Shown piece after piece: positions 32,155-45,262 of a stretch of DNA of 64,000 nt (positions are counted from its first letter, which is position 1; every line of letters starts with the position of its first letter). A program made the translations under genes and the position numbers. This DNA comes from Archaeoglobi archaeon (GTDB lineage: Archaea; Halobacteriota; Archaeoglobi; Archaeoglobales; Archaeoglobaceae). The stretch covers positions 13,805 through 77,804 of the forward strand of contig JAPDIW010000005.1 of the NCBI GenBank assembly GCA_029259415.1, written 5' to 3'. The notes beneath the pieces are model-generated. The model made no database searches. It was given only the letters and a program-made list of their open reading frames with translations, and was not told the origin of the DNA.

Positions 32155-32508
32155 TCACTCGAGGCAGTAACACCCAAGAGAGGGTATGTGGACATCACCC
32201 CTCAAATGCCTGACAGCAGCGGTGATCCTCTGCACGGTAGCCACGTCAAGCTCCCTCATCACGTTGTGGAGCGTGGACTTCTTTGGAGGATTTCTGTAGG
32301 TCCACCCGTGCTGTCTCAGCATGTCAAGGTTCTCTTGGCACCACCTCTCCGCCTGCCTCAGGCTCCACCCCTCCTTGAGGGTGAGGTAGATTACCGCCGT
32401 CAGCAGGGTGCGTGGGTAGGGATGTCTTCCCCTCTTCACCTGGTGGTGATCCGACCCACCGAGGACCATCCTGCACGCCTCGAGGATAACCTCGAACTCA
32501 TCCCCGAC
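32155..32508 (-). CDS. Stand-alone transposase-type N-terminal HTH domain (IS4/IS5-like), no DDE domain; start approximate
   Basis: RGRHPYP...LTAVIYLTLKEGWSLRQAE...PPKKSTLHNVMREL. Confidence 0.6.
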   Translation of the reverse strand, partial: VGDEFEVILEACRMVLGGSDHHQVKRGRHPYPRTLLTAVIYLTLKEGWSLRQAERWCQENLDMLRQHGWTYRNPPKKSTLHNVMRELDVATVQRITAAVRHLRGDVHIPSLGCYCLE

Positions 32509-32575
32509 CAAACTACCAGCACCCCTCAGACGCAATCTGACCTGTCCAAAAAATAGAATTTTGATGAACCCTATG

Positions 32576-33166
32576 TCAAACATCCAGCGTCACGGTAGCC
32601 TCCAGGATCTTGTCTCCGTTCCACCTCCAGACCTCGCTGTGTATGGTGTAGGTCCCGTGGCTCCAGCCCCAGATCTCGACGGTGTAGGTCTTAGTCTCGT
32701 TGGGCTCAAGGTTCAGCGGCACGGGGAACGGGGCGTTGAACTCGCTGATCCTGCCATCGGGGCCTATCACCTTCACGAAGCCCGTTACGTAGTCGATAGA
32801 TCTATTGTCTACGTTCTTCAGGGTGACCAACGCCGTTCCCGCATCCAGATCGACCGAGTAGTCCACGATCTCCAGGTCGTTGTCGGTCTCTTCAGCATAC
32901 ATCTCCGCAAACCTTTCGTAGCGCTTTTGAATCTCCATGTACTCCGCCGTCTCGCTCCTCCCCTTCTGCTCCAGCTCCCTCAGCCTGTTCTCGTACTTCT
33001 CCATGATCTTCTTCACGGCCCCATCGTATGCGTCGTCGCTCACTATGCGGAGCATTCTGCCTATCTCCATGACGTGCAGGTAGAGCTGATCTGTAACGTC
33101 CTCCAGGAACATTCCTAGGGGGGCCGCAACGACCAGCGAGAGCATGACCAACGCTGCACTATTCAC
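32576..33166 (-). CDS. Signal-anchored protein with coiled coil and C-terminal Ig/CARDB-like domain
   Basis: GTG start after GGAGGTGG; VTLKN...LEPNETKTYTV. Confidence 0.75.
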   Translation of the reverse strand: MNSAALVMLSLVVAAPLGMFLEDVTDQLYLHVMEIGRMLRIVSDDAYDGAVKKIMEKYENRLRELEQKGRSETAEYMEIQKRYERFAEMYAEETDNDLEIVDYSVDLDAGTALVTLKNVDNRSIDYVTGFVKVIGPDGRISEFNAPFPVPLNLEPNETKTYTVEIWGWSHGTYTIHSEVWRWNGDKILEATVTLDV

Positions 33167-33456
33167 GACTCCACCTCCCACACAAGGCAGGGAACCACAG
33201 CCCCGTTCTCCTGCTTCCTCGCTGACTTCACAGCCACATACCAGCGTCCCTTCCACCACACGGGAAACTCGTCACCGAAATCGGCGGTGGCGAACTTAGG
33301 ATGCCTCTGTGGCTTGGGAAAAATGGTCCTTATGCCGGTCCCCTTCCTCCCGTACACAACGTAGTCCTCATCCTCGAAGCGGGCCTGCTGCTTGAACCTA
33401 ATCGTGGTCCTCTCCCGCTTGGGGCGGGTCGCAACTCGTCTCCGCCTGGGCAACAC
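33163..33456 (-). CDS. 97-aa basic protein
   Basis: RBS AGGAGGTGA; coupled to the next gene. Confidence 0.7.
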   Translation of the reverse strand: MLPRRRRVATRPKRERTTIRFKQQARFEDEDYVVYGRKGTGIRTIFPKPQRHPKFATADFGDEFPVWWKGRWYVAVKSARKQENGAVVPCLVWEVES

Positions 33457-33473: not shown

Positions 33474-34697
33474 TTATCCGACAGGGCTCAGCTGGATCCT
33501 CACCACGTAGGGATTCATCGGATCCACAGCCGAGCCGTACACACCCATCCCTTTAGGAATGTTGTCCACAACCTTATAAAAAATATCGATAAAACCTTCG
33601 AACTTCACACTTGCCGTCCTTACCAACCTCGTCAGCTTGCTACGCTGGACATAGCCGAGTACGTATATCTCGTCTGCATTCTCCACAACTATCCTCTCAA
33701 GGGCATCTGGTGACTGGGTTTCCAAGAACACCGTCCACCCATACGATCTCGCCAGCACAGTGACCAGCCTTATTATCTCCCTTTTCGCCTCGAACTCGCC
33801 GGTTTCAGGAGCGTAGATGTGGCTCTCGGTTATGCCTATAAAGCACTCTTGCCTCTTGTAGGCCCTCTCGACCATCTTGAGCATCTGCGCAACAACGAAG
33901 CGCTTGATGTCTATATCTCCGAGATCGGACAGATCCACGATGTTAATCTGCTCTGGATGGATGTAGCCGTGCACGGTTTTGGCTTTGTTCACTTCAAGAA
34001 GCTGGTCCATCCTCAGCAGCTCGATGAAGCGCTTAACATGCAGCACCATGGTGTTGAAGTATGGGTCGTCCTGAAACCTGTAAAGCTCGTTCTCCACCGC
34101 ATCAACTAAGTCCTGGATAGTAATGTGGTTATCCCTACTCTGCCAGACCCTCTCCAGCACAAGTCCTGCTACCGTAGAGGACATCCGCTTGCCGAAGTAC
34201 TCTGCAATCGTTGAGTAGTCCAACTCGGCAAGCGGGATTTTGAGTTCAATTTCTTCCCTGCTCTCACTCTCTTTTAGTGGAACGAGATACCTCTGCGGTG
34301 AAGCACAGCCATCGGGTGGAGCGAGCCTGATTCTCTCTATGCCAGCCTCCCTTATCTGGTTTAGCGACGGTGAGCGGTTGAAGTCCAGGTCCCCCCTCTT
34401 CTCCTGGAATGCCACGATGGGGTTCTTGGTGGTCCTGTAATAGGCTTGGATGATGTTGCGCATGAGGTTCGTTTTGCCTATTCCCTTTCCCGCCACCACA
34501 AGGATCACCTTGCCCTTCTCGACTGAGTAGGCTGAGGGGTTAAAGTAGTGGGGCTGCATCCAGGGCGTGCGGTGACCTATTTTGTAGCCTATCTTCACCG
34601 CATTCTCGCACCCTCTGTATACCAGCCTGAGCGGGATGTACCTGTCGTCCCTCCTCTTCGGCAGCTGAAGCCTTGCCGTATTATATTTTAATAGCAT
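33474..34697 (-). CDS. HerA/FtsK/VirB4-like P-loop ATPase (putative packaging/extrusion motor)
   Basis: Walker A AGKGIGKT; Walker B region FIGITESH; LARSYG; FLETQSP. Confidence 0.85.
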   Translation of the reverse strand: MLLKYNTARLQLPKRRDDRYIPLRLVYRGCENAVKIGYKIGHRTPWMQPHYFNPSAYSVEKGKVILVVAGKGIGKTNLMRNIIQAYYRTTKNPIVAFQEKRGDLDFNRSPSLNQIREAGIERIRLAPPDGCASPQRYLVPLKESESREEIELKIPLAELDYSTIAEYFGKRMSSTVAGLVLERVWQSRDNHITIQDLVDAVENELYRFQDDPYFNTMVLHVKRFIELLRMDQLLEVNKAKTVHGYIHPEQINIVDLSDLGDIDIKRFVVAQMLKMVERAYKRQECFIGITESHIYAPETGEFEAKREIIRLVTVLARSYGWTVFLETQSPDALERIVVENADEIYVLGYVQRSKLTRLVRTASVKFEGFIDIFYKVVDNIPKGMGVYGSAVDPMNPYVVRIQLSPVG

Positions 34698-34727
34698 GTC
34701 CGTCGGACCTCCCACCGGACTCAACCA

Positions 34728-35267
34728 TCATCTTTTGAGCACCTGTCCGAGCTCACCCATAGTCATTCCACTATACTTGGAATGGTTGAAGTAGACGACC
34801 TTCCTGTCTGCTATTAGAATTGAACCGATCAGACCCTTTGATTCGAGCTCTTTCTCTATATCCGAGACCGTCTGCTTCTTCAACCCCAACATTCTGACTA
34901 TTTTTGTGGTCGGGGCTACGCCTCCGAGTTCCTTCAGCGTCAACAGGTAATTCTTCAGGTTGTCGCTGCCGTTGAGCGAGTTTAGGGCGCTTGCCAGCCA
35001 GTCCTCGAAATCCTCTTCGACCTCTGCTTCCTCGACCTCCGTTTCCTCTTCGGCCTCCATGCGCTTTACGGCGGAACTCTTCTCCTTCAGCTTGGCTATC
35101 GTGTGGATCGTCTCGTTATCCAGATCATCTATTGCCTCAAGCAGCCTCTCGAACTCCTCCAGCACGATCTCCATGTTGGGAAAGTCCTTGCTGATCTCCC
35201 TCAGCAGCTTCTCCAGGATCCTGTTCCGGTAGAGCATCAGCCTTCCTATGGTTTCGAGTTCGCTCAT
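34728..35267 (-). CDS. Coiled-coil plus C-terminal winged-helix protein
   Basis: Acidic linker; TTKIVRMLGLKKQTVSDIEKELESKGLI. Confidence 0.8.
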   Translation of the reverse strand: MSELETIGRLMLYRNRILEKLLREISKDFPNMEIVLEEFERLLEAIDDLDNETIHTIAKLKEKSSAVKRMEAEEETEVEEAEVEEDFEDWLASALNSLNGSDNLKNYLLTLKELGGVAPTTKIVRMLGLKKQTVSDIEKELESKGLIGSILIADRKVVYFNHSKYSGMTMGELGQVLKR

Positions 35268-36163
35268 ACGTACCTCTCTCCGCCCTCGACCCTTGCGTTG
35301 AGGTTCTGCAGCTTCTCCGTAGCCCTCCTTATCCTCTCCTCCCTGAGCTTCTTCCCCTCCAGGGCGTAGAACTCGTCTATCTCCTCGTCGCTCAGGATGC
35401 CCTGCAGGAGCCTCTGCTGGTAGTAGTACTGCCTGAAGAACGGGTTGGTGAAGACGGAAAGCTTAACTGCTCTGTTCATGTCCTTCAGCAGCTCGGTGTT
35501 TAGCTCGGAAACCCGCTTGTAGGCCCTCCTGAGGAAGCGGTTCTCCTCAATTGCCGGCTCAACCCTCTCCGGAGGCACGACCCTGAAGGTGTTGCCATCT
35601 ATCGTCTGCAGCGTTTTTGCATGAATGATGATCTCCTTGGGCGAAATGCTGAGGATGAGCTCCTCCGGGACCTCGAGCCTCTTCCTTCCCCTGCCGAAGA
35701 TCCTTGTTATCGCTTGGATGCCGTTGAGGAAAATGCTGTTGTGGACGGGGAAGTAGTAGAAGACGTAGTAGCCGTGCAGGCCGTCGAGGCTCAGCCTGTC
35801 GTAGCTGTGCAGCTTTCCTATGACGACGTTACCCTCCCCGAAGGCCGTCTGCTCGTCGTACCATATGGTGATCCTCTGTCCCCTGGCCTTGTGCAGCCCC
35901 CTGGTGGCCTTCTTCAGCCTCTTCTCCGCCTCCTTCTCGGCCTCCTCCCTGATCTGCTGTTCTATCTCCTTCTTTGACTCCTCTTCGATGATCCTCTTTA
36001 TCTCCTCCCTCGGGATCGTTATCCCGACCTGCTCCAGCGTGCTCTCCGCCTCCTCCACCTTCCTCTTCTTTCTTCCTGCCTTAGCGACGAGGTAGAGGAT
36101 GATGGACGAGGCCAGCGCGATTGAGAGCGTGAAGATCAGAACCATCGGATCGCTAGGAAGCAT
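35264..36163 (-). CDS. N-terminal TM plus coiled-coil protein, 299 aa
   Basis: One TM followed by a basic patch and heptads. Confidence 0.8.
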   Translation of the reverse strand: MLPSDPMVLIFTLSIALASSIILYLVAKAGRKKRKVEEAESTLEQVGITIPREEIKRIIEEESKKEIEQQIREEAEKEAEKRLKKATRGLHKARGQRITIWYDEQTAFGEGNVVIGKLHSYDRLSLDGLHGYYVFYYFPVHNSIFLNGIQAITRIFGRGRKRLEVPEELILSISPKEIIIHAKTLQTIDGNTFRVVPPERVEPAIEENRFLRRAYKRVSELNTELLKDMNRAVKLSVFTNPFFRQYYYQQRLLQGILSDEEIDEFYALEGKKLREERIRRATEKLQNLNARVEGGERYV

Positions 36164-36590
36164 CCTCGGCCACCTCCGATTTTACCAGCACTTCCACCCT
36201 CCTCCTCTCCTTGGCGTCGTGCAACTTCAACGCGGAGAGGAGCATCTGCATGACCGAGTATGCAACGAGGGCGTAGCCCACAACGTAGCCGTAGCCGACG
36301 TACTGGGCGTAGTCTGGAGCCACCACGAGGATCCTCTCGATGTACACGTTGGCGACGTCGCTGAGCCTCAGGATGGTCGTTCCCAGACCCAGAAAAACGA
36401 CCGAGTTGAGGAAGAACACCAGAGCTTCAAGAATCTCGGATGGGATCTCCCTTCTCTTCCCGTTTTTCTTCTCTCCGGTCTCGACGTCTTCTTCGTCGAT
36501 ATCTTCTACCTCAAAGTCATCCCAATTCTCTTCAACATCGACGTCCTCCTCATCAACCCGTCTTCGCCTGAACAACCTAATTCCTGTCAT
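36153..36590 (-). CDS. Membrane protein with acidic N-terminus and 2 TM
   Basis: D/E-rich tract followed by two hydrophobic segments. Confidence 0.75.
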   Translation of the reverse strand: MTGIRLFRRRRVDEEDVDVEENWDDFEVEDIDEEDVETGEKKNGKRREIPSEILEALVFFLNSVVFLGLGTTILRLSDVANVYIERILVVAPDYAQYVGYGYVVGYALVAYSVMQMLLSALKLHDAKERRRVEVLVKSEVAEDAS

Positions 36591-37203
36591 ACCACCACCC
36601 CGCTAAAGCCAGGAAGCCCAGGGTTCCGAGAACGGCGTAGACGACCCACATGGGCGGGAAGTAGAGCAGGAACCCCATCAGCTGCTCCCCGACGGTCGGT
36701 TTATCGGCAACTGCCTCGATATCTGTCCTCATCGACTTCAGCTCCTCCTCAAACCGGGACAGCTTGTCGTTGAGCTCGATTAGCTTGAGCCTCATCTCGT
36801 CCGGAGTGACGGGCCTGTAGAGCTCTTCTGGGTACACCTTGGCTTTGAAGGTCTTGGTTGAGTAGCTGAAATCGTTATCTGACAGCTTCACGTACTGAAC
36901 GTTCACAACCTGCTGGGTTACCCTGAGCTTCCAGCCCGTCTGATCCTCCTTCTCAATAACACCACCAGTAACCTTGATCCTGTCCGCTATGGCCCTCGGA
37001 AAGTGACTGTACCCTCCGATGTAGAGCTCCCTCGTGACGTCCCCCTCGTATGTGTAGTAAATGGAGGACTTCAGGCAAGCGGGCTCGCCATCTCCGACCT
37101 CGGATGCCTGCACGATCGCTATCGTAACTATCCCGTACAGGCACAGGGTGAGTAGGACCAGCAGGATCACCACAATCGCTCTTCTAGCGTCCACTCTCTC
37201 CAC
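36577..37203 (-). CDS. Protein with N- and C-terminal TM and an extracellular domain
   Basis: Hydrophobic termini and a short coiled coil. Confidence 0.75.
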   Translation of the reverse strand: MERVDARRAIVVILLVLLTLCLYGIVTIAIVQASEVGDGEPACLKSSIYYTYEGDVTRELYIGGYSHFPRAIADRIKVTGGVIEKEDQTGWKLRVTQQVVNVQYVKLSDNDFSYSTKTFKAKVYPEELYRPVTPDEMRLKLIELNDKLSRFEEELKSMRTDIEAVADKPTVGEQLMGFLLYFPPMWVVYAVLGTLGFLALAGWWYDRN

Positions 37204-37441
37204 CCCCCGTCAGCCTGAGAACCGTATCAAGGGCGTTCAGCTGAGCTTTTAGCTCCTCTAATCTCTCTTGGGCAAACTTGCGTGTTTCTGGGTCGTTAAT
37301 GTTTCTGAGGTCAATTTCCAGCCGTTTTATGTCAAATTCCAGAATTCCTTTCTGTCTTTCGATTTCTTTTCGATCCTGTTCGGAGTATGGCACTTGGACA
37401 TTGAGCTTCTTCGCTCCATTCTTGAATCTGATGTTTATCAT
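37184..37441 (-). CDS. 85-aa coiled-coil protein
   Basis: Overlaps both neighbours. Confidence 0.65.
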   Translation of the reverse strand: MINIRFKNGAKKLNVQVPYSEQDRKEIERQKGILEFDIKRLEIDLRNINDPETRKFAQERLEELKAQLNALDTVLRLTGGGESGR

Positions 37442-37833
37442 ACCCTCACGACCTCCTTAACGAATCTGATACTGTCTAAGACTCTCTCCGCAACATACAC
37501 AACCGCCCAGATTAGCAGAAATGCCCATATCAGCGTAAACCCTGCAAGATGTCTGTGCACATCCTTTGAGACGAGTATAGAGAGCGTTGCCACTGCTGTA
37601 AATGCTATCATGCCTTCAAGAGCATAGTCAATGATTCCTGCAAGCCACCCATAATCTGCAAGCCACTCCAGACCTCTCCACGCTTCCCCTCCAAACAGGT
37701 CTGCGAAAGCCCATACCCTGAAAACGTATCCGTCCGGTAGGCCGAATCCCCTAAAAACAACCCACTCCATAAGGAACAGGGTAATCCAGTAGCCAAGCAT
37801 GCCCAAAATTCCGGTTTTGAGATGTTGGTTCAA
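37438..37833 (-). CDS. 131-aa multi-TM membrane protein
   Basis: Three hydrophobic segments; TTG start. Confidence 0.7.
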   Translation of the reverse strand: MNQHLKTGILGMLGYWITLFLMEWVVFRGFGLPDGYVFRVWAFADLFGGEAWRGLEWLADYGWLAGIIDYALEGMIAFTAVATLSILVSKDVHRHLAGFTLIWAFLLIWAVVYVAERVLDSIRFVKEVVRV

Positions 37834-39228
37834 CTACTCACCTCCCTCCTGCCTCCAGACGACAAACTTCAAAACTCCAGCAAGAACCGCCAAACCCACC
37901 AAAATCTGAGCCCAAGGCTCGTTCAGGTACTCGTACCAGCTTCTCTCCTCCGACAGGTTGAGGTTAAGGGCGTTGTTGATTGCCTTGACAGCGTTGATCT
38001 GCCCGTACTCGACCTTATCATCCGGATCGCTTATCTCGTCCGTGCTCAGCTTGATCAGCGTCTCTGCTTGGCTAGGCGTGATGCCCTTCTCAGCTTCAAC
38101 CAACAAGAGGACACCAGCAATGTGAGGAGCTGCAAAGCTCGTTCCGTCTCCGGAGTACAGGTTTCCGTCCGACGACAGCACCGGAACTTGAACGCCGGGA
38201 GCTGCTACCAAAGCCCCGCCGTTGCTGAATGAAGCGACGCTTCCGTAAATGTCCGTCGCAGCGACAGAGATGACGGTATCGTAGGCCGCAGGGTAGAGCG
38301 ATGTAGCTCCTCCCGAGTTTCCGGAGGCTGCCACAAGGATGACGCTCTTGCCGTACAGCAGATCACAGAGGGTTTCAAGCTCTGGTGGGGCTAAGTCAGC
38401 TCCCAGGCTCATCGACACGACATCTATCCTCTCACCAGCGTTCACTTTATCGAGAACCCACTCCAGGCCTGCTATTACGTCGCTCCAGTTCCCCTCGCCG
38501 TTATCGTTCAGAACCTTGAGGGCATAATAGCCGGCAGAGGGAGCCACGCCCGTATACTTGTCCTCTCCCTCCGCCAGGATTATCGAAGTGCACTCGGTGC
38601 CGTGGCCGTAAACGTCGTCCGGCTCCGCGTCGCCGTAGGCGAAGTCGTAGCCTCCGAGGTAGCCGTCGTCGAGGTCTGGCAGGTTGTGATTGACGCCTGT
38701 ATCCAGAACTGCCACAACTGCACCTTTGCCGGTGAAGTTCGATCTGTGGGCGATATCTGCCTTTATCGCTTCGAGATTCCAGCCCAGATCCTGAACTACG
38801 GGCTTAATCGGGATCTGGGAGAGGGTATCAGCGAAGCCTACCGCCCTGACCCTCTGGTCGTAAAGAACCTTCTGAACCCTCGGGTTTTCGAGCAACTTTT
38901 GGAGTTCCTTATAGTCCCCCTCCACGACGGCCCAGTTCGCATACTTGCCAGCCTTGATGACCTTGAATCCCTGCCTTTCCAGCTCAGTAGCATTAACGCC
39001 GCTCACGAACATTCTAACCGGCTTCTTGGGATTCGTGGCGAACTTCTGCTGCAGAACTGGGTCGAGCTTCTGGTTCTTGACTTCCTCCTGTTCTATCTTT
39101 TCCTCAAGCCACTTCCCGAAATCCGGTACGTGGATGAGCGGCGGGTCTGCGATGTAGGCCGCGTAAACGAATGCCGCAAGTCCGAGGGCTGCGATTGCAA
39201 TTCCGAGGAGCTTGAGATCGTCGCCCAT
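37834..39228 (-). CDS. Subtilisin-like S8 serine protease with N-terminal anchor, prodomain and C-terminal TM
   Basis: Triad motifs VAVLDTG, YGHGTEC, GTSFAAPH; oxyanion AASGN. Confidence 0.95.
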   Translation of the reverse strand: MGDDLKLLGIAIAALGLAAFVYAAYIADPPLIHVPDFGKWLEEKIEQEEVKNQKLDPVLQQKFATNPKKPVRMFVSGVNATELERQGFKVIKAGKYANWAVVEGDYKELQKLLENPRVQKVLYDQRVRAVGFADTLSQIPIKPVVQDLGWNLEAIKADIAHRSNFTGKGAVVAVLDTGVNHNLPDLDDGYLGGYDFAYGDAEPDDVYGHGTECTSIILAEGEDKYTGVAPSAGYYALKVLNDNGEGNWSDVIAGLEWVLDKVNAGERIDVVSMSLGADLAPPELETLCDLLYGKSVILVAASGNSGGATSLYPAAYDTVISVAATDIYGSVASFSNGGALVAAPGVQVPVLSSDGNLYSGDGTSFAAPHIAGVLLLVEAEKGITPSQAETLIKLSTDEISDPDDKVEYGQINAVKAINNALNLNLSEERSWYEYLNEPWAQILVGLAVLAGVLKFVVWRQEGGE

Positions 39229-39229
39229 C

Positions 39230-39478
39230 TCACAACCTCCCGAGAATCAGATTCCAGATCGGGTTGAAGATCAGGTAGCCGGTTAGCCACCAGATGAGCA
39301 TGTAGAAGCAGATATGGGCAGCCACACCCACTATGGTCTCGCTCTCGGACCAAGCGTGCTTGGCTGACTTCCACATGGCCAGCAAGAAGAAGATGAGCGA
39401 GAGTGGGCTCAGGCCGGTGATTATCTGAAGCTGCGTGAAGAGGTTGACGATGCTGCTGAAGAGGTCGGCAACGGTCAC
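39230..39478 (-). CDS. 82-aa membrane protein
   Basis: GTG start overlapping the upstream stop; 2 TM. Confidence 0.65.
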   Translation of the reverse strand: MTVADLFSSIVNLFTQLQIITGLSPLSLIFFLLAMWKSAKHAWSESETIVGVAAHICFYMLIWWLTGYLIFNPIWNLILGRL

Positions 39479-39654
39479 TCTCTCATCCCCCTGATCACAT
39501 CGATGAAGACTCCAGCCCCGGCGGCGAGGGCCGCGTAGTTCAGCGCCTGGTTCATGAACCACTTAGTGAACTCCTCGTAGCCGAACTCCTTGATGTAAAC
39601 GAGGCAGAGGCAGACGAAAAGGCAGAGACCGAGGAACGTGAACGTGGGCTTCAT
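39475..39654 (-). CDS. 59-aa membrane protein
   Basis: MKPTFTFLGLCLF...; RBS GGAGG. Confidence 0.65.
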   Translation of the reverse strand: MKPTFTFLGLCLFVCLCLVYIKEFGYEEFTKWFMNQALNYAALAAGAGVFIDVIRGMRE

Positions 39655-39974
39655 CGCATCGCCCCCAGGCTTACGGTTATGTTCGCGAAGTTCCATGCGA
39701 CGACTGCTGCGAGTATCGCCGTGCAGAGCAGCAGTCCCTTCTTGGCGAGGATTGGGTTCCTGCTCCTTAGCTCGTAGGCGATCATGACGACCAGACTCAG
39801 GCTCACACCCTTCGCGAAGAAGAATGCCTCCGGCGAGTGCTCGTAGATCGGGTTCAGCTCGAAGCCCAAGCCGGCTTCGATGGCGTATATCGTCACCGCC
39901 GCGTCGATGGCAGAGAGTACTATCACGCACGTAAGCAGCAGGCTGAAGCCGACCCAGGTCTTCAAAGCGTACAC
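39651..39974 (-). CDS. DUF5658-like membrane protein
   Basis: AIDAAVTIYAIEAGLGFELNP motif; 3 TM. Confidence 0.7.
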   Translation of the reverse strand: MYALKTWVGFSLLLTCVIVLSAIDAAVTIYAIEAGLGFELNPIYEHSPEAFFFAKGVSLSLVVMIAYELRSRNPILAKKGLLLCTAILAAVVAWNFANITVSLGAMR

Positions 39975-39986
39975 CTCCGAGAAAAA

Positions 39987-40508
39987 TTAGAGGATGACTC
40001 TGATGATCCCCATGCCCACCTTTATTCCGACCGCCACCCCCACAGGGATTATCAGAATCCCCCAGAGGAGCGTATCGACGAGCAGGTTGTTGAACAGCGG
40101 CGGGCAGCTCTGCTTCACGAAGAGGAAGTATCCTGCCACATAGCTCATGTAGCCCTCGTAGCCCGTGACGTTGAGTGTTATGGTGTCCGTTGCGGGGGAG
40201 GTTTCTATCGTGATTGTGCCCGAAGACTTGTCCACGTGGAAATATGCGTTATCCTCTCCCTTGTTGACTCCGTCAACGAGGATTGAGTAGCCTGTGCCAT
40301 CGGCAACCCTCACGAAGATTGTATCGCCGTAGTGGACTTCAACATCTGTGAAGTTGGTCGTGTAGCTCCCTTCCAAGCCAAAAAGCCCTCCGTTGCACAC
40401 TTCGAGGGTTGCGGCTGTGGCGTTGACAATGGCTGCCGTGCTGACTGGAATCCATGCGAGCATTAGAAAAATAAGGAGTTTTAAAGCTCTCATTCCAGCC
40501 CTGTTCAT
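39987..40508 (-). CDS. Secreted protein with C-terminal TM
   Basis: Signal peptide ending STA-A; beta-rich domain; TM. Confidence 0.75.
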   Translation of the reverse strand: MNRAGMRALKLLIFLMLAWIPVSTAAIVNATAATLEVCNGGLFGLEGSYTTNFTDVEVHYGDTIFVRVADGTGYSILVDGVNKGEDNAYFHVDKSSGTITIETSPATDTITLNVTGYEGYMSYVAGYFLFVKQSCPPLFNNLLVDTLLWGILIIPVGVAVGIKVGMGIIRVIL

Positions 40509-43333
40509 AGTACCACCCTTATCAGCGTCAGCACCAGGCTCACTACGATGAGTCCGCCTATGAGCAGTATGAACGCCCACAGAATGCTGTCTATCGCTTG
40601 GTTACCGAGAATCGGATAAGCAGTTGCGAGCTGTCCGAGAAATCCGCCGAACCCCGTGGTGGTGCCGACCTTCACGGTAATCTCGTTCTCAACAGTCTCC
40701 CCGGTGGCCGAGACTGCTGTAACGTTGTACACCCCCGCCTCGTCGAACGTGTAGCGTGCGGGATCCTTGACGAAGGTTGCAGTCTTGTTTCCGTTGATGT
40801 ACAGCTCTCCTCCCTCTGCGACGACTTTCCCGTTCTGCAGGATGGCGAACTCCACCTCGGAGCCAACTGGTAAGGCGACATCGCCGAACTGCCAGCTCTT
40901 GAACCACTCGTCTATGCTGTCCCAAGCCCAGTAGAGCCCGTAGCCCATTCCTGCTCCTATCGCGGCTCCGGGGATTGCTCCGATTCCTCCGCCGAGAATT
41001 GCTCCGATTACTGCTCCTATTCCAGCTCCAAGTCCGGTTGAACCCATCGTGTTCTCGCTGCTCTGCTCTGGCACTTTAACGAGCTTCCAGCTGAGGAGGT
41101 AGCTGTTCGGGTCGACGACCTCTATGTAGGCTATGTCCGTCAAGCCGTTGTACTCCGCCCTGAGCGTGTAGTTGCCCGGGTCAACGAAGTCGTAGTCCAG
41201 CCAGGCCCCGAAGAACCAGCCCCTCGTCTCGCCAATCATCTCCCCGTTAAGATATATCGGCACGTCAGCCAGCTCGGCTCCGTGCTCGTTCACGACGCTG
41301 ATTTTGCGTTTTCCAACCCACACAACCTGCCCGTCTGCATCGCTTCCGTCTATCCTCAGCTCTATCCTTGTTGTTGTGAGGTCTTCACCCCCATCGTCGT
41401 CCAGGTCTCCTGATGGCTTGAGGTAGACCGTAAGCTCGGTGTCAGCAGAGAACTGCCTGTCCTCAATCAGCTTGTTGCTGTAGTCTCCTGATGGGTCGGA
41501 CACATGGATGGTGTAGCTAACTCCCGAATCCACCGTCAGAACTGCTGTACCATCCTCCCTGGTCACCTTCTGCTCCACGACAGAGCCGCCCTTCAGCAGC
41601 GAGACCACCACACCCGGGATGGATTTCTCCGAGTGCTCGTCGAGAACCCTGACCGTGAGGGTGAGGCTCCCGCCGTCCTTGTCAAACTCGTCTACATCGC
41701 TGTAGACGTAAACAGTCCCAGTTCCGGTGCGGAGCACTCCTGAAGAGGTGGTTATCTCCGCATAGACCTCGTGCAACCCCACATTGTTGAAGGGATAAGT
41801 AAGTTCGGGGTCGGCATCCCCTATCCTTTCTCCATCGACAAGTATGACACTCCTCACAGCCTCCTTCTGCACCCCGTTGCAGACCTTGACTGTCTTGAAT
41901 GTGACCTTGCCCCCTACCTTGACGGACTGAGGGGAATAGATGAGCGTGTACTGGCATCCGTCCTCATCCGGCTCGGTTCTCGGGTAGTCACCGTCATCCG
42001 CTCCCCCGTTGACGTCGTAGGTCTCGTTCAGAATCGTAACGTTTGTTGCCCTGGAGAGCTCGTCACCGATTTTGGCGTAGACGTAGTGCTCACCTGCAGA
42101 GTCGACTCTGATTACCGCCTGCGGAACGTCTGGGTTAACGAGGTCGTCAAAGAAGTCGAAGAAACCCCAGTCGTCTGGGTCTTTGGTTTTAACTCCTGTT
42201 GATTGCCCGTCAACGTATATCTCAGCCCCCTCAATCCACTCTGGGTCGAGAGGATTCCACCATGCCTTCTGTGTGTTCTTGACCTTGACGATTATCGGCT
42301 CGTTGACCTTGGCTGTGTACTTGTCCAGAATGCAGATGTACTTGCTGTCGGGGTTGCCGTAATCTCCAGGCTGTTCTGGCTGCTCCTCAGGGATTTCCTC
42401 AACCGTTATCACTCCCACCTGGGTGTCGTTGTAGTAAATCTCCACGTACCTGGGAAACTCTGCTACCTCGGCAGCGAGGGAGTGCTCTGGTTCTGGTGTG
42501 CTGTACAAAACATCTCCGCTCTCGCTCTTAACCACAAACTTGAACTTCTTCCCAGACTCCTGAGACAGATAGACCCAATATGTACCCCCTAAATCTCTGA
42601 CCGAACCGTTGAAGGTCACAGAGTTCATTGAGGTGTAAACCTTGACGCTTGCGTGGTCTGGGATTGCTGGGGAGCTTCCGCTGCTTTGCGAAAGTGATAT
42701 TGATACTAAGCTGAGAGTATCCTTGACTATCGTTTTGTCGTTGTAAATATCGCCTATAAACTCACTGTACCACTGCACGATAGGTGTCCCCCAACTCGTG
42801 TACCCGACAATCCTGTACTCCTTAGCCCTTACAGTTATCGAGTCATCTGCAACTTTACTCCAGTCCACGTCAAAATAAATGTCCATCGTGCACGGTTCAA
42901 ATCCAACGTAAATCGTCGCTGTGCCGATTTGCGTTTTATCCGAACCCGTAACCACCCTTCCGTCCAACACCCAGGGCCCAGTAACATATTCTAAACTCGA
43001 TGTGCCGGCACCCAGTTCTGCCCTATAAACTTTATGTTTGCATGAGCTGGCTGGATAGATTATTTCCAGCTTGCTGATTTTTCTGCCAGCCAATCCACTT
43101 ATCGTAATCGCATTCTTCTCTACTATCCCATAATTCCAGCCTGTAAACTCTATATGCCTCTCAGTCGTTGACGAACTCGTGTTGGCCTCGAAGATTCTCT
43201 CGTAAACGTCCCCAGGGAGGTAAACCGTCTTGCTTATCTCTACAGTCGTTAGAGCGTCAACTTCTTGTGCCGACGCTGGAACTGCCGTCAGTGCAATAGC
43301 CACTATGCAAAAAAAGAGAAGAAAACGCTTCAC
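40505..43333 (-). CDS. 942-aa surface/spike-like protein with signal peptide, repeated Ig/PEGA-like domains, glycine zipper and C-terminal TM
   Basis: PASA signal cleavage; IYVDG, ILVDG, IYLNG, LYING repeats; many NxT/S sequons. Confidence 0.85.
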   Translation of the reverse strand: MKRFLLFFCIVAIALTAVPASAQEVDALTTVEISKTVYLPGDVYERIFEANTSSSTTERHIEFTGWNYGIVEKNAITISGLAGRKISKLEIIYPASSCKHKVYRAELGAGTSSLEYVTGPWVLDGRVVTGSDKTQIGTATIYVGFEPCTMDIYFDVDWSKVADDSITVRAKEYRIVGYTSWGTPIVQWYSEFIGDIYNDKTIVKDTLSLVSISLSQSSGSSPAIPDHASVKVYTSMNSVTFNGSVRDLGGTYWVYLSQESGKKFKFVVKSESGDVLYSTPEPEHSLAAEVAEFPRYVEIYYNDTQVGVITVEEIPEEQPEQPGDYGNPDSKYICILDKYTAKVNEPIIVKVKNTQKAWWNPLDPEWIEGAEIYVDGQSTGVKTKDPDDWGFFDFFDDLVNPDVPQAVIRVDSAGEHYVYAKIGDELSRATNVTILNETYDVNGGADDGDYPRTEPDEDGCQYTLIYSPQSVKVGGKVTFKTVKVCNGVQKEAVRSVILVDGERIGDADPELTYPFNNVGLHEVYAEITTSSGVLRTGTGTVYVYSDVDEFDKDGGSLTLTVRVLDEHSEKSIPGVVVSLLKGGSVVEQKVTREDGTAVLTVDSGVSYTIHVSDPSGDYSNKLIEDRQFSADTELTVYLKPSGDLDDDGGEDLTTTRIELRIDGSDADGQVVWVGKRKISVVNEHGAELADVPIYLNGEMIGETRGWFFGAWLDYDFVDPGNYTLRAEYNGLTDIAYIEVVDPNSYLLSWKLVKVPEQSSENTMGSTGLGAGIGAVIGAILGGGIGAIPGAAIGAGMGYGLYWAWDSIDEWFKSWQFGDVALPVGSEVEFAILQNGKVVAEGGELYINGNKTATFVKDPARYTFDEAGVYNVTAVSATGETVENEITVKVGTTTGFGGFLGQLATAYPILGNQAIDSILWAFILLIGGLIVVSLVLTLIRVVL

Positions 43334-43352: not shown

Positions 43353-43748
43353 TTAGCTGGCGGACTCGTTGAACAGGAAGGTCAGGGTTGCTATCGTGTC
43401 CTTCGTGATGGTTACGTTCTTTGCGAGGGTGACTGAGTTCCACTCAGCCTGCACCTGATAGTCACCCACATCTACATCGCTGAAGTAGGCCGTGCCGTTT
43501 TCATCAGTTTGCTTGAGCAGCTCGGTCGACAGGATGCTGACGGTCACGTTGGCGAGCGGGACATCGTCGGTCGTATCGGCCGTCTGCATGGCATCGTAGC
43601 ATAGGACTTTGAGGTCGCCCTTGTCGGCGAACCAAGGGATGCGGTCGGCTGTCTGCTCCCACCAGCCGAGGTAATAGCCGACGCCAGCTATGATCAGCAG
43701 AACGCCGAAACCGGCAATCGCAACCTGCTTGAGCTCCATCCCCATCAC
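43353..43748 (-). CDS. TM-anchored carboxypeptidase-regulatory-like beta-sandwich protein
   Basis: PLANVTV...TDENGTAYFSDVDVGDYQV. Confidence 0.8.
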   Translation of the reverse strand: MMGMELKQVAIAGFGVLLIIAGVGYYLGWWEQTADRIPWFADKGDLKVLCYDAMQTADTTDDVPLANVTVSILSTELLKQTDENGTAYFSDVDVGDYQVQAEWNSVTLAKNVTITKDTIATLTFLFNESAS

Positions 43749-43749
43749 C

Positions 43750-44328
43750 TCACCTCAGTCCCTTTGCCCCCAGAACCGCTATACCGACGCCGAGCAGGAA
43801 CAGCAGCACCGGGAAGAACGCCTCCAACTCGTTGTCGTAGCTAATGGTAGCCAGCGGTGCCGCAACGCTCAGAGCAGCGAGGTTCTTGGCTTCGACGCCG
43901 TAAGCCGTTGCGCTGGCAGAAGTGAACGGGTAGACTTCGACACCGCCGATCAGCTCGATCTCCTTCCCCTTGAAGTCCTCGACCACGTAGCCGGGAATTA
44001 CCTCTTTTATCGTCTTGTCGTCGGTTATGTCGTAGATCGTGCACGTCACGCCACTGCCCGTCTTCATCGCATCGCAACCCTTAACCCAGTCCGGACTGAT
44101 CGAGAAGTAGCTCGGCTTGATAACTATCCTCGCCGAGATCGGATAGGACGTCTTCGGGTCCAGCTTGATCGTCACGTAGTTGAGGTCGTTGACCTCTACC
44201 GGGTCGCTCTGCGTTACGGTTACCGAAAGGGCCGTGTTGCTCTGCGTCACCACTCCAGCACTCGCCGGAACCGCAGCCGCAACGACCAGCACAACCAGCA
44301 CTCCCAAAATCCAACCGGTCTTCACCAA
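43750..44328 (-). CDS. Signal peptide plus C-terminal TM protein, candidate major envelope protein
   Basis: VPASA cleavage site; second gene of the operon; strong RBS GAGGTGA. Confidence 0.8.
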   Translation of the reverse strand: MVKTGWILGVLVVLVVAAAVPASAGVVTQSNTALSVTVTQSDPVEVNDLNYVTIKLDPKTSYPISARIVIKPSYFSISPDWVKGCDAMKTGSGVTCTIYDITDDKTIKEVIPGYVVEDFKGKEIELIGGVEVYPFTSASATAYGVEAKNLAALSVAAPLATISYDNELEAFFPVLLFLLGVGIAVLGAKGLR

Positions 44329-44334
44329 ACAACA

Positions 44335-44523
44335 TCACCTCGCCTTCTTTTTCTTCCTACCTCCACTATTCCCCTTCCTACCTCCTCCACTCTTCCCTTT
44401 CCTCTTCCTCCGCTTCCTGAGTTCGCTCATCGGCACCTCAACTACCTGCATGGTGCCTCCGGGCCCCTTCTTGAAGTGGTAGCCCATCCCCTTCTTCTTC
44501 CTAAACTGCGCGACCACTCCCAA
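44335..44523 (-). CDS. 62-aa highly basic protein, candidate nucleoprotein
   Basis: K/R/G-rich; TTG start after GAGGTGA. Confidence 0.7.
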   Translation of the reverse strand: MGVVAQFRKKKGMGYHFKKGPGGTMQVVEVPMSELRKRRKRKGKSGGGRKGNSGGRKKKKAR

Positions 44524-44674: not shown

Positions 44675-44906
44675 TATATAAAATATGTAACTTTGTCCCC
44701 TATTTTTTGATGATGATTAATCCTGCCCTTGTGTCCACATCTATCTCCAAATAGTCTCCTTCACTCCATCCTAAGAGCTTCAAAACCGCGCTCGGTATAG
44801 TTACGCTTAGACTGTTTCCGGTCCGTTTCAACTTTACTTTTAATTTGTTAGCACTCATGTTTTACTTTTGTTCTAACGAGTATAAGAACAGTAAAGCTTT
44901 GTCCCC
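44675..44906 (-). promoter_or_regulatory. Two promoters sharing GGGGACAAAG-N8-TATA
   Basis: Motif at 44691-44700 and 44897-44906, each 8 nt from TTTATATA or TTCTTATA. Confidence 0.7.
44700..44858 (-). CDS. AbrB/MazE/SpoVT-like regulator, 52 aa (missing from ORF track)
   Basis: MSANKLKVKLKRTGNSLSVTIPSAVLKLLGWSEGDYLEIDVDTRAGLIIIKK. Confidence 0.88.
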   Translation of the reverse strand: MSANKLKVKLKRTGNSLSVTIPSAVLKLLGWSEGDYLEIDVDTRAGLIIIKK

Positions 44907-45262
44907 GAAAAATTTAAGCCGTGCACCTAACTCATGACTTTATGCACGGTCCGGGCCCTCTTATTTCGAGTTCTAATCCCTCTCGTAACTTTCAGCACGG
45001 CATCGAATTTTATAAACCCTTCGTTTAGTTTTTTCTGACTGATGTTTGGTTATAGCAAAGCGAGATTGTTTGTGATGTAGAGGCCGTCAGAAGGGAGATT
45101 GAGAGCACTGAAGAGCTACAAAACTTCACCAATTACCAGAAATTGCAGTGGAGAAGGGACCAGTATGAAAAACGAAGATTTTAGAATGAATAAACATGCT
45201 AATTAACTTTTCGATAATTCTTTTTCAGTAAATAATTTAAAATAGAAGCTGCATTATCAAAC

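What the first reader, a model, noticed from the sequence alone, without database searches (positions are those of the whole stretch)
37834..39228. Doubly membrane-anchored subtilase embedded in the morphogenesis operon
Seen: complete D/H/S triad, prodomain, an N-terminal TM and a C-terminal TM; coupled between small membrane genes and sharing the GC-rich style of the operon. Known: S8 proteases self-cleave their prodomain, which here would leave the enzyme tethered by the C-terminal TM on the outer face. Inference: it matures the spike or envelope proteins, or cuts the S-layer for exit or entry. This role is unusual for archaeal enveloped viruses.
Basis: partly seen in the sequence, partly recalled or inferred. 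Interest (0 to 1): 0.8.

Follow-up and report, generated by a model that had tools for sequence, protein, structure and literature searches.

The report
Membrane-anchored subtilase of an Archaeoglobi mobile element
The gene is a real, intact subtilisin-type protease held to the membrane at both ends, and it is a conserved core gene of a previously undescribed family of integrated mobile elements in hydrothermal-vent Archaeoglobi, where it most likely trims the element's own surface proteins, though that role is untested.

Summary
Window 37834-39228 (- strand) encodes a 464-aa S8 subtilase with the D176/H209/S364 triad and oxyanion N304. It has an I9-type prodomain, whose model best matches unprocessed pro-subtilisins. 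It also has an N-terminal and a C-terminal hydrophobic helix.

The gene sits in a tightly packed, GC-rich operon of about 16 genes. Twelve of the 16 proteins are predicted membrane proteins, and the last is a HerA-type ATPase.

The subtilase is at the same position in all 18 related loci that cover it. The family forms one clade with no host subtilase nested inside. Its divergence tracks that of the other core genes, and dN/dS is 0.06-0.08.

The "enveloped virus" label is not supported. There is no detectable homology to the VP3, VP4 or ATPase of AvPV1, the known pleomorphic virus of Archaeoglobi. There is also no match to any virus record and no member in IMG/VR.

The elements are about 15-18 kb with intact tyrosine integrases next to tRNA genes. 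The window copy has no integrase.

The closest published parallel is the S8 protease ORF7, a core and particle-associated protein of haloarchaeal plasmid-vesicle elements (pR1SE/apHPVs). A maturation role for co-encoded surface proteins is the best inference. S-layer cutting is the main rival.

The parts
37834..39228 (-). S8A subtilase, 464 aa. Layout: N-terminal TM helix (about res 5-27), helical linker (37-65), I9-type prodomain (71-129), predicted autoprocessing zone (about 129-146), catalytic domain (150-425; D176, H209, N304, S364), 15-aa stalk with an NLS sequon, C-terminal TM helix (438-460).
39230..39478 (-). g82: 82-aa protein with two TM segments, directly upstream of the subtilase (1-nt gap). 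It is conserved in every locus, with motifs FTQLQ..TGLS(P/A) and Y(L/F)xxNPxWN. It is a candidate major small structural protein and a candidate substrate.
39475..39654 (-). g59: 59-aa protein with one N-terminal hydrophobic segment. It is a conserved partner of g82 and overlaps both neighbouring genes by 4 nt.
39651..39974 (-). g107: DUF5658 membrane protein with three TM segments. It is present in only part of the family.
39987..40580 (-). g197: protein with a signal peptide and a C-terminal TM anchor. The likely start is the ATG at 40508. Its C-terminal anchor motif (..DTLLW..TM..IRVIL) matches that of the 942-aa protein.
40505..43333 (-). g942: large surface protein with a signal peptide, beta-sandwich (CarboxypepD_reg-like) domains, a glycine-zipper hydrophobic segment at res 762-804 and a C-terminal TM. 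It is the most variable gene of the module.
43353..43748 (-). g131cpd: CarboxypepD_reg-domain protein held by an N-terminal anchor. Conserved core gene.
43750..44328 (-). g192: protein with a signal peptide and a C-terminal TM. Conserved core gene.
44335..44523 (-). g62: very basic 62-aa protein, the first gene of the GC-rich operon.
44700..44858 (-). AbrB/MazE-type 52-aa DNA-binding protein upstream of the operon. The L009 counterpart is called PF04014. The right edge of homology to related elements lies near 44959.
37184..37833 (-). g131tm (three TM segments) plus g85 (coiled coil): a low-GC variable cassette right after the subtilase. It is absent or replaced in several loci.
36577..37203 (-). 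g208: core protein with an N-terminal and a C-terminal TM. It is the first gene of the second conserved cluster.
36153..36590 (-). g145: core protein with an acidic N-terminus and two TM segments.
35264..36163 (-). g299: core protein with an N-terminal TM, long helices and a beta-rich domain (res 97-196). It is an orphan fold with no PDB or BFVD match.
34728..35267 (-). g179: coiled-coil protein with a MarR-like winged helix.
33474..34724 (-). HerA/DUF87-type P-loop ATPase, 416 aa, the last gene of the operon. The family is highly isolated: two full-length 50%-identity clusters among 1.84 billion representatives.
32155..33456 (-). Accessory tail shared with some related elements: g97, g227 (one TM) and g142 (DDE_Tnp_1_assoc/DUF772 domain). 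No integrase follows in the window.

Best explanation
The gene encodes an active pre-pro-subtilisin that is a vertically inherited core component of a new family of tRNA-integrating mobile elements of Archaeoglobi, about 15-18 kb long.

Shown:
- the S8A fold with an intact triad;
- a subtilisin-type prodomain;
- two terminal hydrophobic helices, both conserved under strong purifying selection;
- a fixed position at the end of the first gene cluster (secreted or anchored surface proteins plus small hydrophobic proteins), ahead of a second cluster that ends in a HerA-type ATPase.

Inferred mechanism:
1. The protein inserts with both ends in the cytoplasm and the bulk outside.
2. The catalytic domain folds on its prodomain and cuts itself somewhere in residues 129-146, after the conserved V-(R/K)-A-(V/I).
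3. The inhibitory prodomain stays tethered by the N-terminal helix until it is degraded.
4. The mature enzyme of about 34 kDa stays on the outer membrane face, on a stalk of only about 15 residues.
5. From there it can reach only membrane-proximal targets. I propose that it processes the element's own co-anchored surface proteins (g942/g197/g192-type anchored proteins or the g59/g82 small hydrophobic proteins) while a transfer particle, vesicle or apparatus is being made. This is the role proposed for the S8 protease ORF7 of pR1SE-like plasmid-vesicle elements.

Whether the element makes virions, vesicles or a cell-bound transfer machine is not known.
For: Enzyme. The top structural matches are unprocessed pro-Tk-subtilisin and pro-subtilisin E.

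Selection: dN/dS is 0.06-0.08 overall. TM1 plus linker, prodomain and catalytic domain each give 0.05-0.10, and the short C-terminal part gives 0.08-0.15.

Architecture: the double anchor is specific to the family, in 15 of 18 members against 4 of the 99 nearest relatives.

Core status: the gene is present at the same position in all 18 informative loci. Its pairwise distances correlate with those of g299 and the ATPase (r=0.84 and 0.80 without the mosaic L008), and mean divergence is similar at 0.37, 0.36 and 0.32. It forms a monophyletic clade, with bit scores dropping from 285 to 169 outside the family.

Operon: gaps range from -20 to +19 nt and composition is shared. Twelve of the 16 operon proteins have predicted TM segments.

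Mobile element: intact tyrosine integrases lie next to tRNA-Arg, tRNA-Asn and tRNA-Met in L001, L025, L012 and L021.

Analogy: apHPV ORF7 is an S8 protease. It is a core gene, was detected in plasmid vesicles, and is proposed to mature other particle proteins. Those elements also have two conserved clusters split by a variable region and end in a VirB4/HerA-like ATPase (PMC10818511).
Against: - No substrate is identified, and no cleavage motif shared by the candidate substrates was found.
- The glycine-rich segment of g942 that would fit a priming model occurs in only one lineage.
- Topology is predicted from hydropathy alone. The flanks of the N-terminal helix are acidic rather than basic, so the positive-inside rule gives no help.
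- No RNA data exist.
- There is no sign of an episomal or circular form.
- The window copy lacks an integrase and att repeats, so it may no longer be mobile.
- Homology to apHPVs could not be tested because no pR1SE sequence was available. The parallel is architectural only.
Confidence: 0.5

Rival explanations
1. S-layer or cell-envelope cutter. The outward-facing tethered protease locally degrades the host S-layer, or its membrane stalks. This would let a bud, vesicle or transfer structure leave the cell, or, if the enzyme is carried on a particle, let that particle reach the membrane of a new cell.
For: The orientation and anchoring are as predicted. Archaeoglobi have an S-layer that any membrane-bound particle must cross (general knowledge). 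The enzyme looks like a broad-specificity thermitase/subtilisin type with hydrophobic residues at the predicted P1 and P4 of the self-cleavage site. For pleolipoviruses, S-layer contact is known to matter at entry (cited in PMC10919331).
Against: The stalk between the catalytic domain and the membrane helix is only about 15 residues, so the active site sits close to the membrane. It could reach only the membrane-proximal parts of S-layer proteins. The known Archaeoglobi pleomorphic viruses exit without such a protease. No S-layer-binding domain is present.
Confidence: 0.2
2. Structural or scaffolding role, as in mycosin. The protease is mainly a stabilising subunit of a membrane complex built around the HerA-type ATPase (a DNA or protein transfer machine), and its proteolytic activity is secondary.
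For: The best NCBIfam match is T7SS mycosin, at E=2e-37. It shares with mycosin a C-terminal TM anchor and placement in an operon of membrane proteins with a FtsK/HerA-superfamily ATPase. The ATPase's weak best NCBIfam hits are the Ced DNA-import ATPases CedB and CedD. The pT26-2 core module, with many TM proteins, a CarboxypepD_reg domain and a HerA/VirB4-like ATPase, is interpreted as a transfer system (PMC6972569).
Against: The mycosin score is far below the family cut-off (129 against 279 bits). Unlike mycosin, this protein has a classical cleavable-type prodomain. The triad and oxyanion residue are invariant, so catalysis is under selection. No Ecc-like partners are present.
Confidence: 0.15
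3. Cargo gene with a host-level benefit. The protease serves the cell, for example in extracellular protein scavenging, exclusion of competing elements, or as part of a defence system, rather than the element's own transfer.
For: The window copy has no integrase, yet every operon gene is intact. This recalls the retained core modules of immobilised pT26-2 elements (PMC6972569). PADLOC lists a generic 'subtilase' model at 1e-20 and weak IetS hits. The ATPase hits mad8 at 2e-12.
Against: The position inside a translationally coupled operon is fixed in all 18 loci, and divergence tracks the structural genes. A scavenging enzyme would more likely be secreted, not tethered at both ends. The PADLOC hits are domain-level only. 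The 16-gene membrane module with integrase and tRNA linkage does not resemble any listed defence system.
Confidence: 0.1

Closest known systems
ORF7 (S8 serine protease) of pR1SE and other apHPVs, the haloarchaeal plasmids spread in plasmid vesicles (PMC10818511)
   Same: It is an S8 subtilisin-like protease that is a core gene of an archaeal mobile element. It lies in a first conserved cluster next to a large, variable surface-type protein. A variable region separates that cluster from a second one, which ends in a VirB4/HerA/packaging-type ATPase. The elements are absent from IMG/VR, and the hosts belong to the same phylum (Halobacteriota). The proposed role is maturation of the other particle proteins.
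   Different: The hosts are hyperthermophilic Archaeoglobi, not Halobacteria. The elements are small (about 15-18 kb) and integrate next to tRNA genes. No NEP1-like, WD40 or ORF23-type proteins were recognised. Sequence homology could not be tested here. Whether ORF7 has the double membrane anchor is not stated in the paper. No vesicles have been observed for the present family.
Pro-Tk-subtilisin (Thermococcus kodakarensis) and pro-subtilisin E
   Same: They are the best structural matches over the prodomain plus catalytic domain (Foldseek E about 1e-29 to 1e-30, 28-29% identity). They have the same triad and the same I9-type intramolecular chaperone/inhibitor logic.
   Different: Those are secreted soluble enzymes with a cleaved signal peptide and no C-terminal membrane helix. 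They are chromosomal housekeeping or scavenging enzymes.
Mycosin (MycP) of type VII secretion systems
   Same: It is a subtilase with a C-terminal TM anchor facing outward, encoded in an operon of membrane proteins with a FtsK/HerA-superfamily ATPase. It is the best NCBIfam hit.
   Different: The score is below the family cut-off. Mycosin has a wrapped N-terminal extension instead of a cleaved I9 prodomain. There are no Ecc partners. Mycosin is bacterial (Actinobacteria/Firmicutes).
Furin and other proprotein convertases (eukaryotic S8B)
   Same: The layout is the same: signal or anchor, self-cleaved prodomain, subtilase domain, C-terminal TM anchor. They prime membrane-anchored viral fusion proteins next to a glycine-rich fusion peptide. 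The g942 segment 762-804 resembles such a peptide.
   Different: The present enzyme is S8A, not S8B. It has no P domain and no evidence of dibasic specificity. The similarity is analogy only. The glycine-rich segment is not conserved across the family.
AvPV1 and 'Thalassapleoviridae', the pleomorphic enveloped viruses of Archaeoglobi (PMC10919331)
   Same: They share the host class and habitat, a similar size (9-18 kb) and integrases at tRNA genes. Overall gene order is similar: a small DNA-binding protein, then membrane proteins, then large surface protein(s), then an ATPase. They also share an accessory domain (DDE_Tnp_1_assoc).
   Different: No VP3, VP4, ORF6-like or AAA+ ATPase homology was found. 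The ATPase here is HerA/DUF87-type. AvPV1-like genomes carry no subtilase.
pT26-2 plasmid family of Thermococcales and Methanococcales (PMC6972569)
   Same: It has a conserved syntenic module rich in TM proteins, a CarboxypepD_reg domain protein and a HerA/VirB4-like ATPase near the end. It integrates at tRNA genes and is found in deep-sea hyperthermophiles. The module is retained in immobilised copies.
   Different: The family is reported as restricted to two other orders. No protease is mentioned in that paper. Its integrases are of the gene-splitting SSV type, whereas the integrases here are intact in the integrated state. Homology could not be tested because no sequences were at hand.

Membership tests
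Peptidase family S8 (subtilases), subfamily S8A | Asp-His-Ser catalytic triad in that order, with the DTG, HGT and GTS motifs and an oxyanion Asn | tested here: met
   D176, H209, N304 and S364 are present and invariant in the family alignment.
Peptidase family S8 (subtilases), subfamily S8A | Score above Pfam PF00082 gathering threshold | tested here: met
   142.3 bits against a cut-off of 21.8, E=2.5e-41.
Peptidase family S8 (subtilases), subfamily S8A | Subtilisin alpha/beta fold | tested here: met
   The AF2 model has pLDDT 93.2. TM-scores normalised to the target are 0.77-0.92 against subtilisins and thermitase.
Subtilisin I9-type propeptide (intramolecular chaperone/inhibitor) | A beta-alpha-beta-beta-alpha-beta domain N-terminal to the catalytic domain, docked as in pro-subtilisins | tested here: met
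   The model has the unit at residues 71-129. The top Foldseek hits are unautoprocessed pro-Tk-subtilisin and pro-subtilisin E with about 370-410 aligned columns. phmmer aligns from residue 62. The Pfam I9 model itself did not reach the reporting threshold.
Subtilisin I9-type propeptide (intramolecular chaperone/inhibitor) | Autocatalytic removal of the propeptide | not testable with these tools
   This needs expression of the wild type and S364A and N-terminal sequencing. The predicted site is in residues 129-146.
T7SS mycosin (TIGR03921) | Score above the curated equivalog cut-off | tested here: not met
   129.1 bits against a cut-off of 278.75.
T7SS mycosin (TIGR03921) | Encoded with EccB/C/D/E-type partners | tested here: not met
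   No such Pfam or NCBIfam hits occur among the operon proteins.
T7SS mycosin (TIGR03921) | C-terminal transmembrane anchor | tested here: met
   A hydrophobic segment lies at residues 439-457 and a model helix at 438-460.
Pleolipoviridae / 'Thalassapleoviridae' | VP4-like fusogen | tested here: not met
   hhalign of the large-protein alignments against AvPV1 gp06 (VP4-like) and gp05 gave probabilities of 1.2% and 5.1%. No PDB sequence hit, which would include the HRPV6 spike, was found. No structural model of g942 was made.
Pleolipoviridae / 'Thalassapleoviridae' | VP3-like small membrane protein | tested here: not met
   hhalign of 15 module families (all but the large proteins, the subtilase and the ATPase) against a 6-sequence VP3 alignment gave probabilities of 1% or less.
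Pleolipoviridae / 'Thalassapleoviridae' | Conserved NTPase of the AAA+ type shared with spindle-shaped viruses | tested here: not met
   The ATPase here is DUF87/HerA-type. hhalign against AvPV1 gp10 gave 11.7% over 17 columns, the P-loop only.
apHPV (pR1SE-like plasmid-vesicle elements) | At least 5 of 6 marker proteins (ORF6, 8, 17, 21, 23, 24) by HMM | not testable with these tools
   pR1SE (KX687704) is not in the collections, and no sequences are in the paper's supplements.
apHPV (pR1SE-like plasmid-vesicle elements) | S8 protease and a VirB4/HerA-like ATPase as core genes, in two conserved clusters split by a variable region | tested here: met
   The gene content and order match. The clusters recombine independently: L008 and L012 are mosaics. 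The variable cassette g131tm/g85 lies between them.
apHPV (pR1SE-like plasmid-vesicle elements) | Host in class Halobacteria; production of plasmid-containing vesicles | tested here: not met
   All named loci are from Archaeoglobi MAGs. Vesicle production is unknown.
pT26-2 plasmid family | Seven core genes (t26-5p, 6p, 7p, 11p, 13p, 14p, 15p) | not testable with these tools
   No pT26-2 sequences were available. The profile search of the ATPase found no named Thermococcales or Methanococcales relatives among the ten remote hits whose names were looked up.

The most novel reading that the evidence does not exclude
The family is a new kind of membrane-bounded transfer agent of hyperthermophilic Archaeoglobi: either a marine counterpart of haloarchaeal plasmid vesicles or a new enveloped-virus family. 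It would carry its own furin-like, membrane-tethered convertase. The protease would prime a large anchored surface protein next to a glycine-rich fusion-peptide-like segment (g942 res 762-804), or would mature the small two-helix proteins g59/g82. That would make particle infectivity depend on a self-encoded subtilase. No such mechanism is described in the archaeal virus and plasmid literature I consulted.
Probability: 0.15. Interest if true: 0.85.

Novelty: new variant of a known kind. Interest (0 to 1): 0.55.

Why it matters
How membrane-bounded archaeal viruses and plasmid vesicles mature their surface proteins and cross the S-layer is an open question. The only published hint of a dedicated protease is the uncharacterised S8 ORF7 of pR1SE-like elements.

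This family gives that question a second, independent case in a sister class from a very different habitat. Three features make the case clean:
- the protease is invariant across the family;
- its topology is easy to read (tethered at both ends, short stalk);
- the set of possible substrates is small and is encoded beside it.

The work also defines a new mobile-element family in Archaeoglobi that virus-detection pipelines have missed: none is in IMG/VR, and there is no match in 50,697 virus records. The enzyme is a compact, probably hyperthermostable membrane-anchored subtilisin, which is of some biochemical interest.

The main limitation is that all members come from metagenome-assembled genomes, so no culture is at hand.

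Tried and rejected
Searches against known viruses and plasmids
- ATPase tblastn against the phage and plasmid collections gave no match. PLSDB, to my knowledge (not checked here), may hold no archaeal plasmids, so the plasmid result says little.
- tblastn of g942 and g299 against virus records gave no match.
- No AvPV1 homology was found. The single 95.6% hhalign hit, large protein against gp08, covers 32 columns of Ala/Gly-rich hydrophobic low complexity. I rejected it as homology.

Searches for distant relatives and folds
- The ATPase profile against 1.84 billion representatives found only generic archaeal HerA-like proteins beyond the family. One of these, Halorubrum P0254, was checked as a possible pR1SE ORF25 relative and is chromosomal.
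- PDB sequence searches with the large proteins found nothing.
- The g299 structure came out at moderate confidence (pLDDT 72) and had no significant PDB or BFVD neighbour. The idea that it matches the secretin-N/TonB-like ORF23 of apHPVs therefore found no support.
- Pfam on g299 family members returned only noise.

Element boundaries and activity
- No att direct repeats flank the window element, and the window has no integrase.
- Contigs laid from four metagenome runs show the element at chromosome depth, with no clean excision joint.
- No RNA runs are available, and no contigs are circular.

Hypotheses set aside
- The fusion-peptide priming idea was weakened because the glycine zipper is lineage-specific.
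- The defence-system reading was rejected because the PADLOC hits are domain-level only.

Technical note
Full report
THE OBSERVATION

The ORF at 37834-39228 on the minus strand (ATG to TAG, 464 aa) is a subtilase beyond doubt. Pfam Peptidase_S8 covers residues 167-402 at E=2.5e-41, and PHROG 3677 'protease' matches at 8e-62. The motifs DTG (D176), HGT (H209), SGNS (N304) and GTS (S364) are all present. Hydropathy gives two strong segments, at residues 8-26 and 439-457.

An AlphaFold2 model built on 117 homologues has a mean pLDDT of 93.2. It shows, in order:
- a helix at 3-26;
- two linker helices at 37-65;
- a beta-alpha-beta-beta-alpha-beta unit at 71-129;
- a low-confidence linker at 130-150;
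- the catalytic domain up to about residue 425;
- a helix at 438-460.

The best Foldseek matches in the PDB are the unautoprocessed precursors of Tk-subtilisin (2zwp, 2z2z, 2e1p) and subtilisin E (3whi). They align over about 370-410 columns, that is, propeptide plus mature domain. By sequence the closest solved enzymes are AK.1 protease, thermitase and the subtilisins. So the triad, prodomain, N-terminal helix and C-terminal helix are all confirmed.

THE SETTING

The window has a GC-rich block (53-57%) from about 31.4 to 44.9 kb. The surrounding chromosome is about 45% GC and looks like an Archaeoglobus relative, with aIF2-gamma, FtsZ, QueCDE and acyl-CoA metabolism genes. The sequence is found in hydrothermal-vent metagenomes.

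From 44523 down to 33474, sixteen genes lie on the minus strand with gaps of -20 to +19 nt. The subtilase starts 1 nt after the stop of an 82-aa two-helix membrane protein, and the next gene follows it with no gap. Its GC3 (68%) matches the operon (64-85%) and not the host genes (44-63%). The two genes immediately downstream, g131tm and g85, are the compositional outliers at GC3 51%.

Twelve of the sixteen products have predicted membrane segments. Several combine a signal peptide with a C-terminal anchor: g192, g197 and the 942-aa protein. The operon ends with a winged-helix protein and a 416-aa DUF87/HerA-type ATPase.

IS THE SUBTILASE A PASSENGER?

It is not. The protein search returned a tight group of 17 full-length relatives (37-90% identity, 441-468 aa apart from two truncated entries of 346 and 402 aa). 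After these the score drops from 285 to 169 bits, into generic, mostly bacterial S8 proteins that align over the catalytic domain only. In a neighbour-joining tree of the 117 best hits the family is monophyletic, and no Archaeoglobi chromosomal subtilase is nested in it.

I collected genomic contexts by three independent routes:
- the subtilase itself;
- the ATPase;
- the core protein g299, scanned against one genome per GTDB species and against JGI metagenomes.

In every locus that reaches the expected position the subtilase is there, between the g59/g82 pair and g208. That makes 18 informative loci out of 18. They include the most distant branch (L010/L025, Archaeoglobi archaeon JdFR-42), where the subtilase is 38% and the ATPase 50% identical to the window's.

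Other measures point the same way:
- Pairwise distances of the subtilase correlate with those of g299 and the ATPase (r=0.84 and 0.80 once the mosaic L008 is set aside). Mean divergence is alike, at 0.37, 0.36 and 0.32.
- dN/dS against close relatives is 0.06-0.08 overall, and it is low in each part separately, including the first helix, the prodomain and the C-terminal part.
- All family members keep the triad, and all but three keep both hydrophobic ends: two are truncated entries and one (P0015) has a weaker C-terminal segment.
- Only 4 of the 99 nearest outsiders have both hydrophobic ends.

The large '942-aa' protein, by contrast, is the variable part of the module. It is replaced by unrelated large proteins in L001 and L022, is split in L009, and is missing in L007.

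WHAT KIND OF ELEMENT IS IT?

Related copies carry an intact tyrosine integrase of 383-405 aa. In L001, L025, L012 and L021 it lies directly next to a tRNA gene (tRNA-Arg, -Asn, -Asn and -Met respectively). In L025 the element spans about 15 kb. These are therefore integrating mobile elements.

The window copy has no integrase and no flanking repeats. It sits at chromosome depth in the metagenomes. It may be immobilised, although all its operon genes are intact.

I could not tie the module to any described virus or plasmid:
- tblastn of the ATPase, the 942-aa protein and g299 found nothing in 50,697 virus records.
- IMG/VR holds no member of the subtilase family.
- The ATPase family is extremely isolated, with two full-length 50%-identity clusters among 1.84 billion representatives and then only generic HerA-like proteins at E of about 1e-10 and weaker.
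- The only described viruses of Archaeoglobi, AvPV1 and the proposed 'Thalassapleoviridae' (PMC10919331), have a comparable size and gene order. However, profile comparisons of the module families against their VP3 proteins (15 families) and against AvPV1 gp03-gp10 (all but the subtilase) found nothing. The one exception is a 32-column Ala/Gly-rich hydrophobic stretch that I discount. Their annotation tables list no subtilase.
- The g299 model (pLDDT 72) has no significant neighbour in the PDB or BFVD.

Calling the operon a 'morphogenesis operon' of an 'enveloped virus' is therefore a hypothesis, not a finding.

CLOSEST PUBLISHED PARALLELS

Two element families in the literature resemble the module in architecture.

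The pT26-2 plasmids of Thermococcales and Methanococcales have a syntenic core rich in membrane proteins, a CarboxypepD_reg-domain protein and a HerA/VirB4-like ATPase. That core is read as a transfer system, and no protease is mentioned in the paper (PMC6972569).

The pR1SE-like 'apHPVs' of haloarchaea are more telling. They spread in plasmid vesicles. Their core is made of two conserved clusters separated by a variable region. Cluster 1 holds a large variable protein and ORF7, an S8 subtilisin-like protease that was detected in the vesicles. Cluster 2 ends in a VirB4/HerA/packaging-type ATPase. The authors suggest that ORF7 matures other particle proteins, and they found no apHPV in IMG/VR (PMC10818511).

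The present family shows the same logic. Cluster 1 runs from g192 to the subtilase, the variable g131tm/g85 cassette follows, and cluster 2 runs from g208 to the ATPase. The two clusters recombine independently: in L008 and L012 the first cluster is 65-80% identical to the window's and the second only 36-42%. I could not test homology, because no pR1SE sequence was within reach.

HOW IT MOST LIKELY WORKS

Shown: an intact pre-pro-subtilisin with two conserved terminal helices, under purifying selection, translationally coupled to membrane-protein genes.

Following from established subtilisin biology: the prodomain acts as a folding chaperone, is cut off by the enzyme itself, and then inhibits the enzyme until it is degraded.

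By alignment to pro-subtilisin E and pro-Tk-subtilisin, the cut should fall in residues 129-146, after the conserved V-(R/K)-A-(V/I). The hydrophobic residues at the predicted P1 and P4 suggest the usual broad subtilisin preference.

Inferred: both ends lie in the cytoplasm and the bulk lies outside. The N-terminal hydrophobic run of about 21 residues looks like an anchor rather than a cleaved signal. Four N-X-S/T sequons lie in the predicted ectodomain, and 0-1 in the predicted cytoplasmic ATPase and g299, which is weak support. After self-cleavage the prodomain would remain tethered beside the enzyme, and the mature enzyme would sit on a stalk of about 15 residues. Such a short tether restricts it to membrane-proximal targets.

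The most economical substrates are the neighbouring anchored proteins. The large proteins share a conserved juxtamembrane motif, LATAYP(I/L)xG, followed by D(S/T)xLW and the helix. The small g59 and g82 proteins, encoded directly upstream, are further candidates.

I rate the hypotheses as follows:
- maturation of co-encoded proteins: about 0.5;
- local S-layer cutting: about 0.2;
- a mainly structural, mycosin-like role in a transfer complex: about 0.15. Mycosin is the best NCBIfam hit but scores far below the cut-off;
- a host-benefit or defence role: about 0.1.

A furin-like priming of the 942-aa protein next to its glycine-rich segment (res 762-804) is attractive. That segment exists in one lineage only, so priming cannot be the general function.

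VERDICT

The enzyme is an ordinary member of family S8A in an uncommon double-anchored format. What is new is its status as an invariant core gene of an undescribed Archaeoglobi mobile-element family. That family parallels, and may or may not be related to, the haloarchaeal plasmid-vesicle elements.

I rate it a new variant of a known kind, with interest 0.55.

Noticed in passing
window 40922-41050 (g942 residues 762-804): A 43-residue Gly/Ala/Ile-rich hydrophobic segment (TMGSTGLGAGIGAVIGAILGGGIGAIPGAAIGAGMGYGLYWAW) lies about 140 residues before the C-terminal anchor. It resembles a viral fusion peptide or a glycine-zipper hairpin. It is present only in the WIN/L009/L021/L030 lineage.
   Followed up: partly
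window 40505-40600 and 39987-40080 (C-termini of g942 and g197): The two proteins share a C-terminal anchor, ..(I/V)D(S/T)(I/L)LW..TM..IRV(V/I)L. Large proteins of other loci keep LATAYP(I/L)xG just before the helix. This looks like a common sorting, docking or processing signal.
   Followed up: partly
window 37184-37833: The two genes right after the subtilase (g131tm, three TM segments; g85, coiled coil) have much lower GC (GC3 51%) than the rest of the operon. They are absent or replaced in L001, L003, L005, L010 and L022. They form a variable cassette between two conserved clusters.
   Followed up: partly
window 29325-30409 and 30401-31375: A TcmP-like gene (PADLOC candidate PDC-M30A, 1.5e-37) appears split into two overlapping ORFs of 211 and 161 aa, probably by a frameshift. 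It lies beside a spore-photoproduct-lyase-like radical SAM gene.
   Followed up: partly
window 20307-20903 (-): A 198-aa ORF carries only a family-B DNA polymerase exonuclease domain, directly after aIF2-gamma. It may be a relic of another element. Window 20.3-31 kb is an island of mostly unannotatable genes.
   Followed up: no
window 32155-32583 (-): g142 has a DDE_Tnp_1_assoc/DUF772 domain, the same domain annotated for AvPV1 gp15. It is an accessory gene type shared between two otherwise unrelated Archaeoglobi elements.
   Followed up: no
L008 5544-6752 and L012 4972-6069: An IS605 OrfB/TnpB gene is inserted between the conserved cluster and the ATPase. These two loci are mosaics: the subtilase side is 65-80% identical to the window and the g299/ATPase side only 36-42%.
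   Followed up: partly
L007 8313-16315: This copy has no large surface protein, g192 or g131cpd. A 313-aa gene and a DUF5658 gene precede g59/g82/subtilase, with host genes directly upstream. It is a truncated or reduced element that still keeps the protease.
   Followed up: no
L011 10001-11251: A 44%-identical ATPase homologue sits in a different integrase-bearing element, with GvpD-like ATPases and Orc1/Cdc6 and without the membrane module or the subtilase.
   Followed up: no
window 33474-34724 (-): The ATPase's best PADLOC hit is mad8 of the MADS defence system (2.2e-12). That is stronger than its Pfam DUF87 hit (8e-8). It is probably shared HerA-type P-loop ancestry.
   Followed up: no
L001 7046-7234 and 8480-8620: Runs of a 12-nt tandem repeat occur inside both large surface-protein genes of this element. 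They probably encode repetitive linker peptides.
   Followed up: no
window 44953-44965: Metagenome contigs of run X2 diverge from the window at this point in both directions. Homology to L009 ends at 44959. This is a likely right-hand boundary of the element, but no matching repeat was found on the left.
   Followed up: partly
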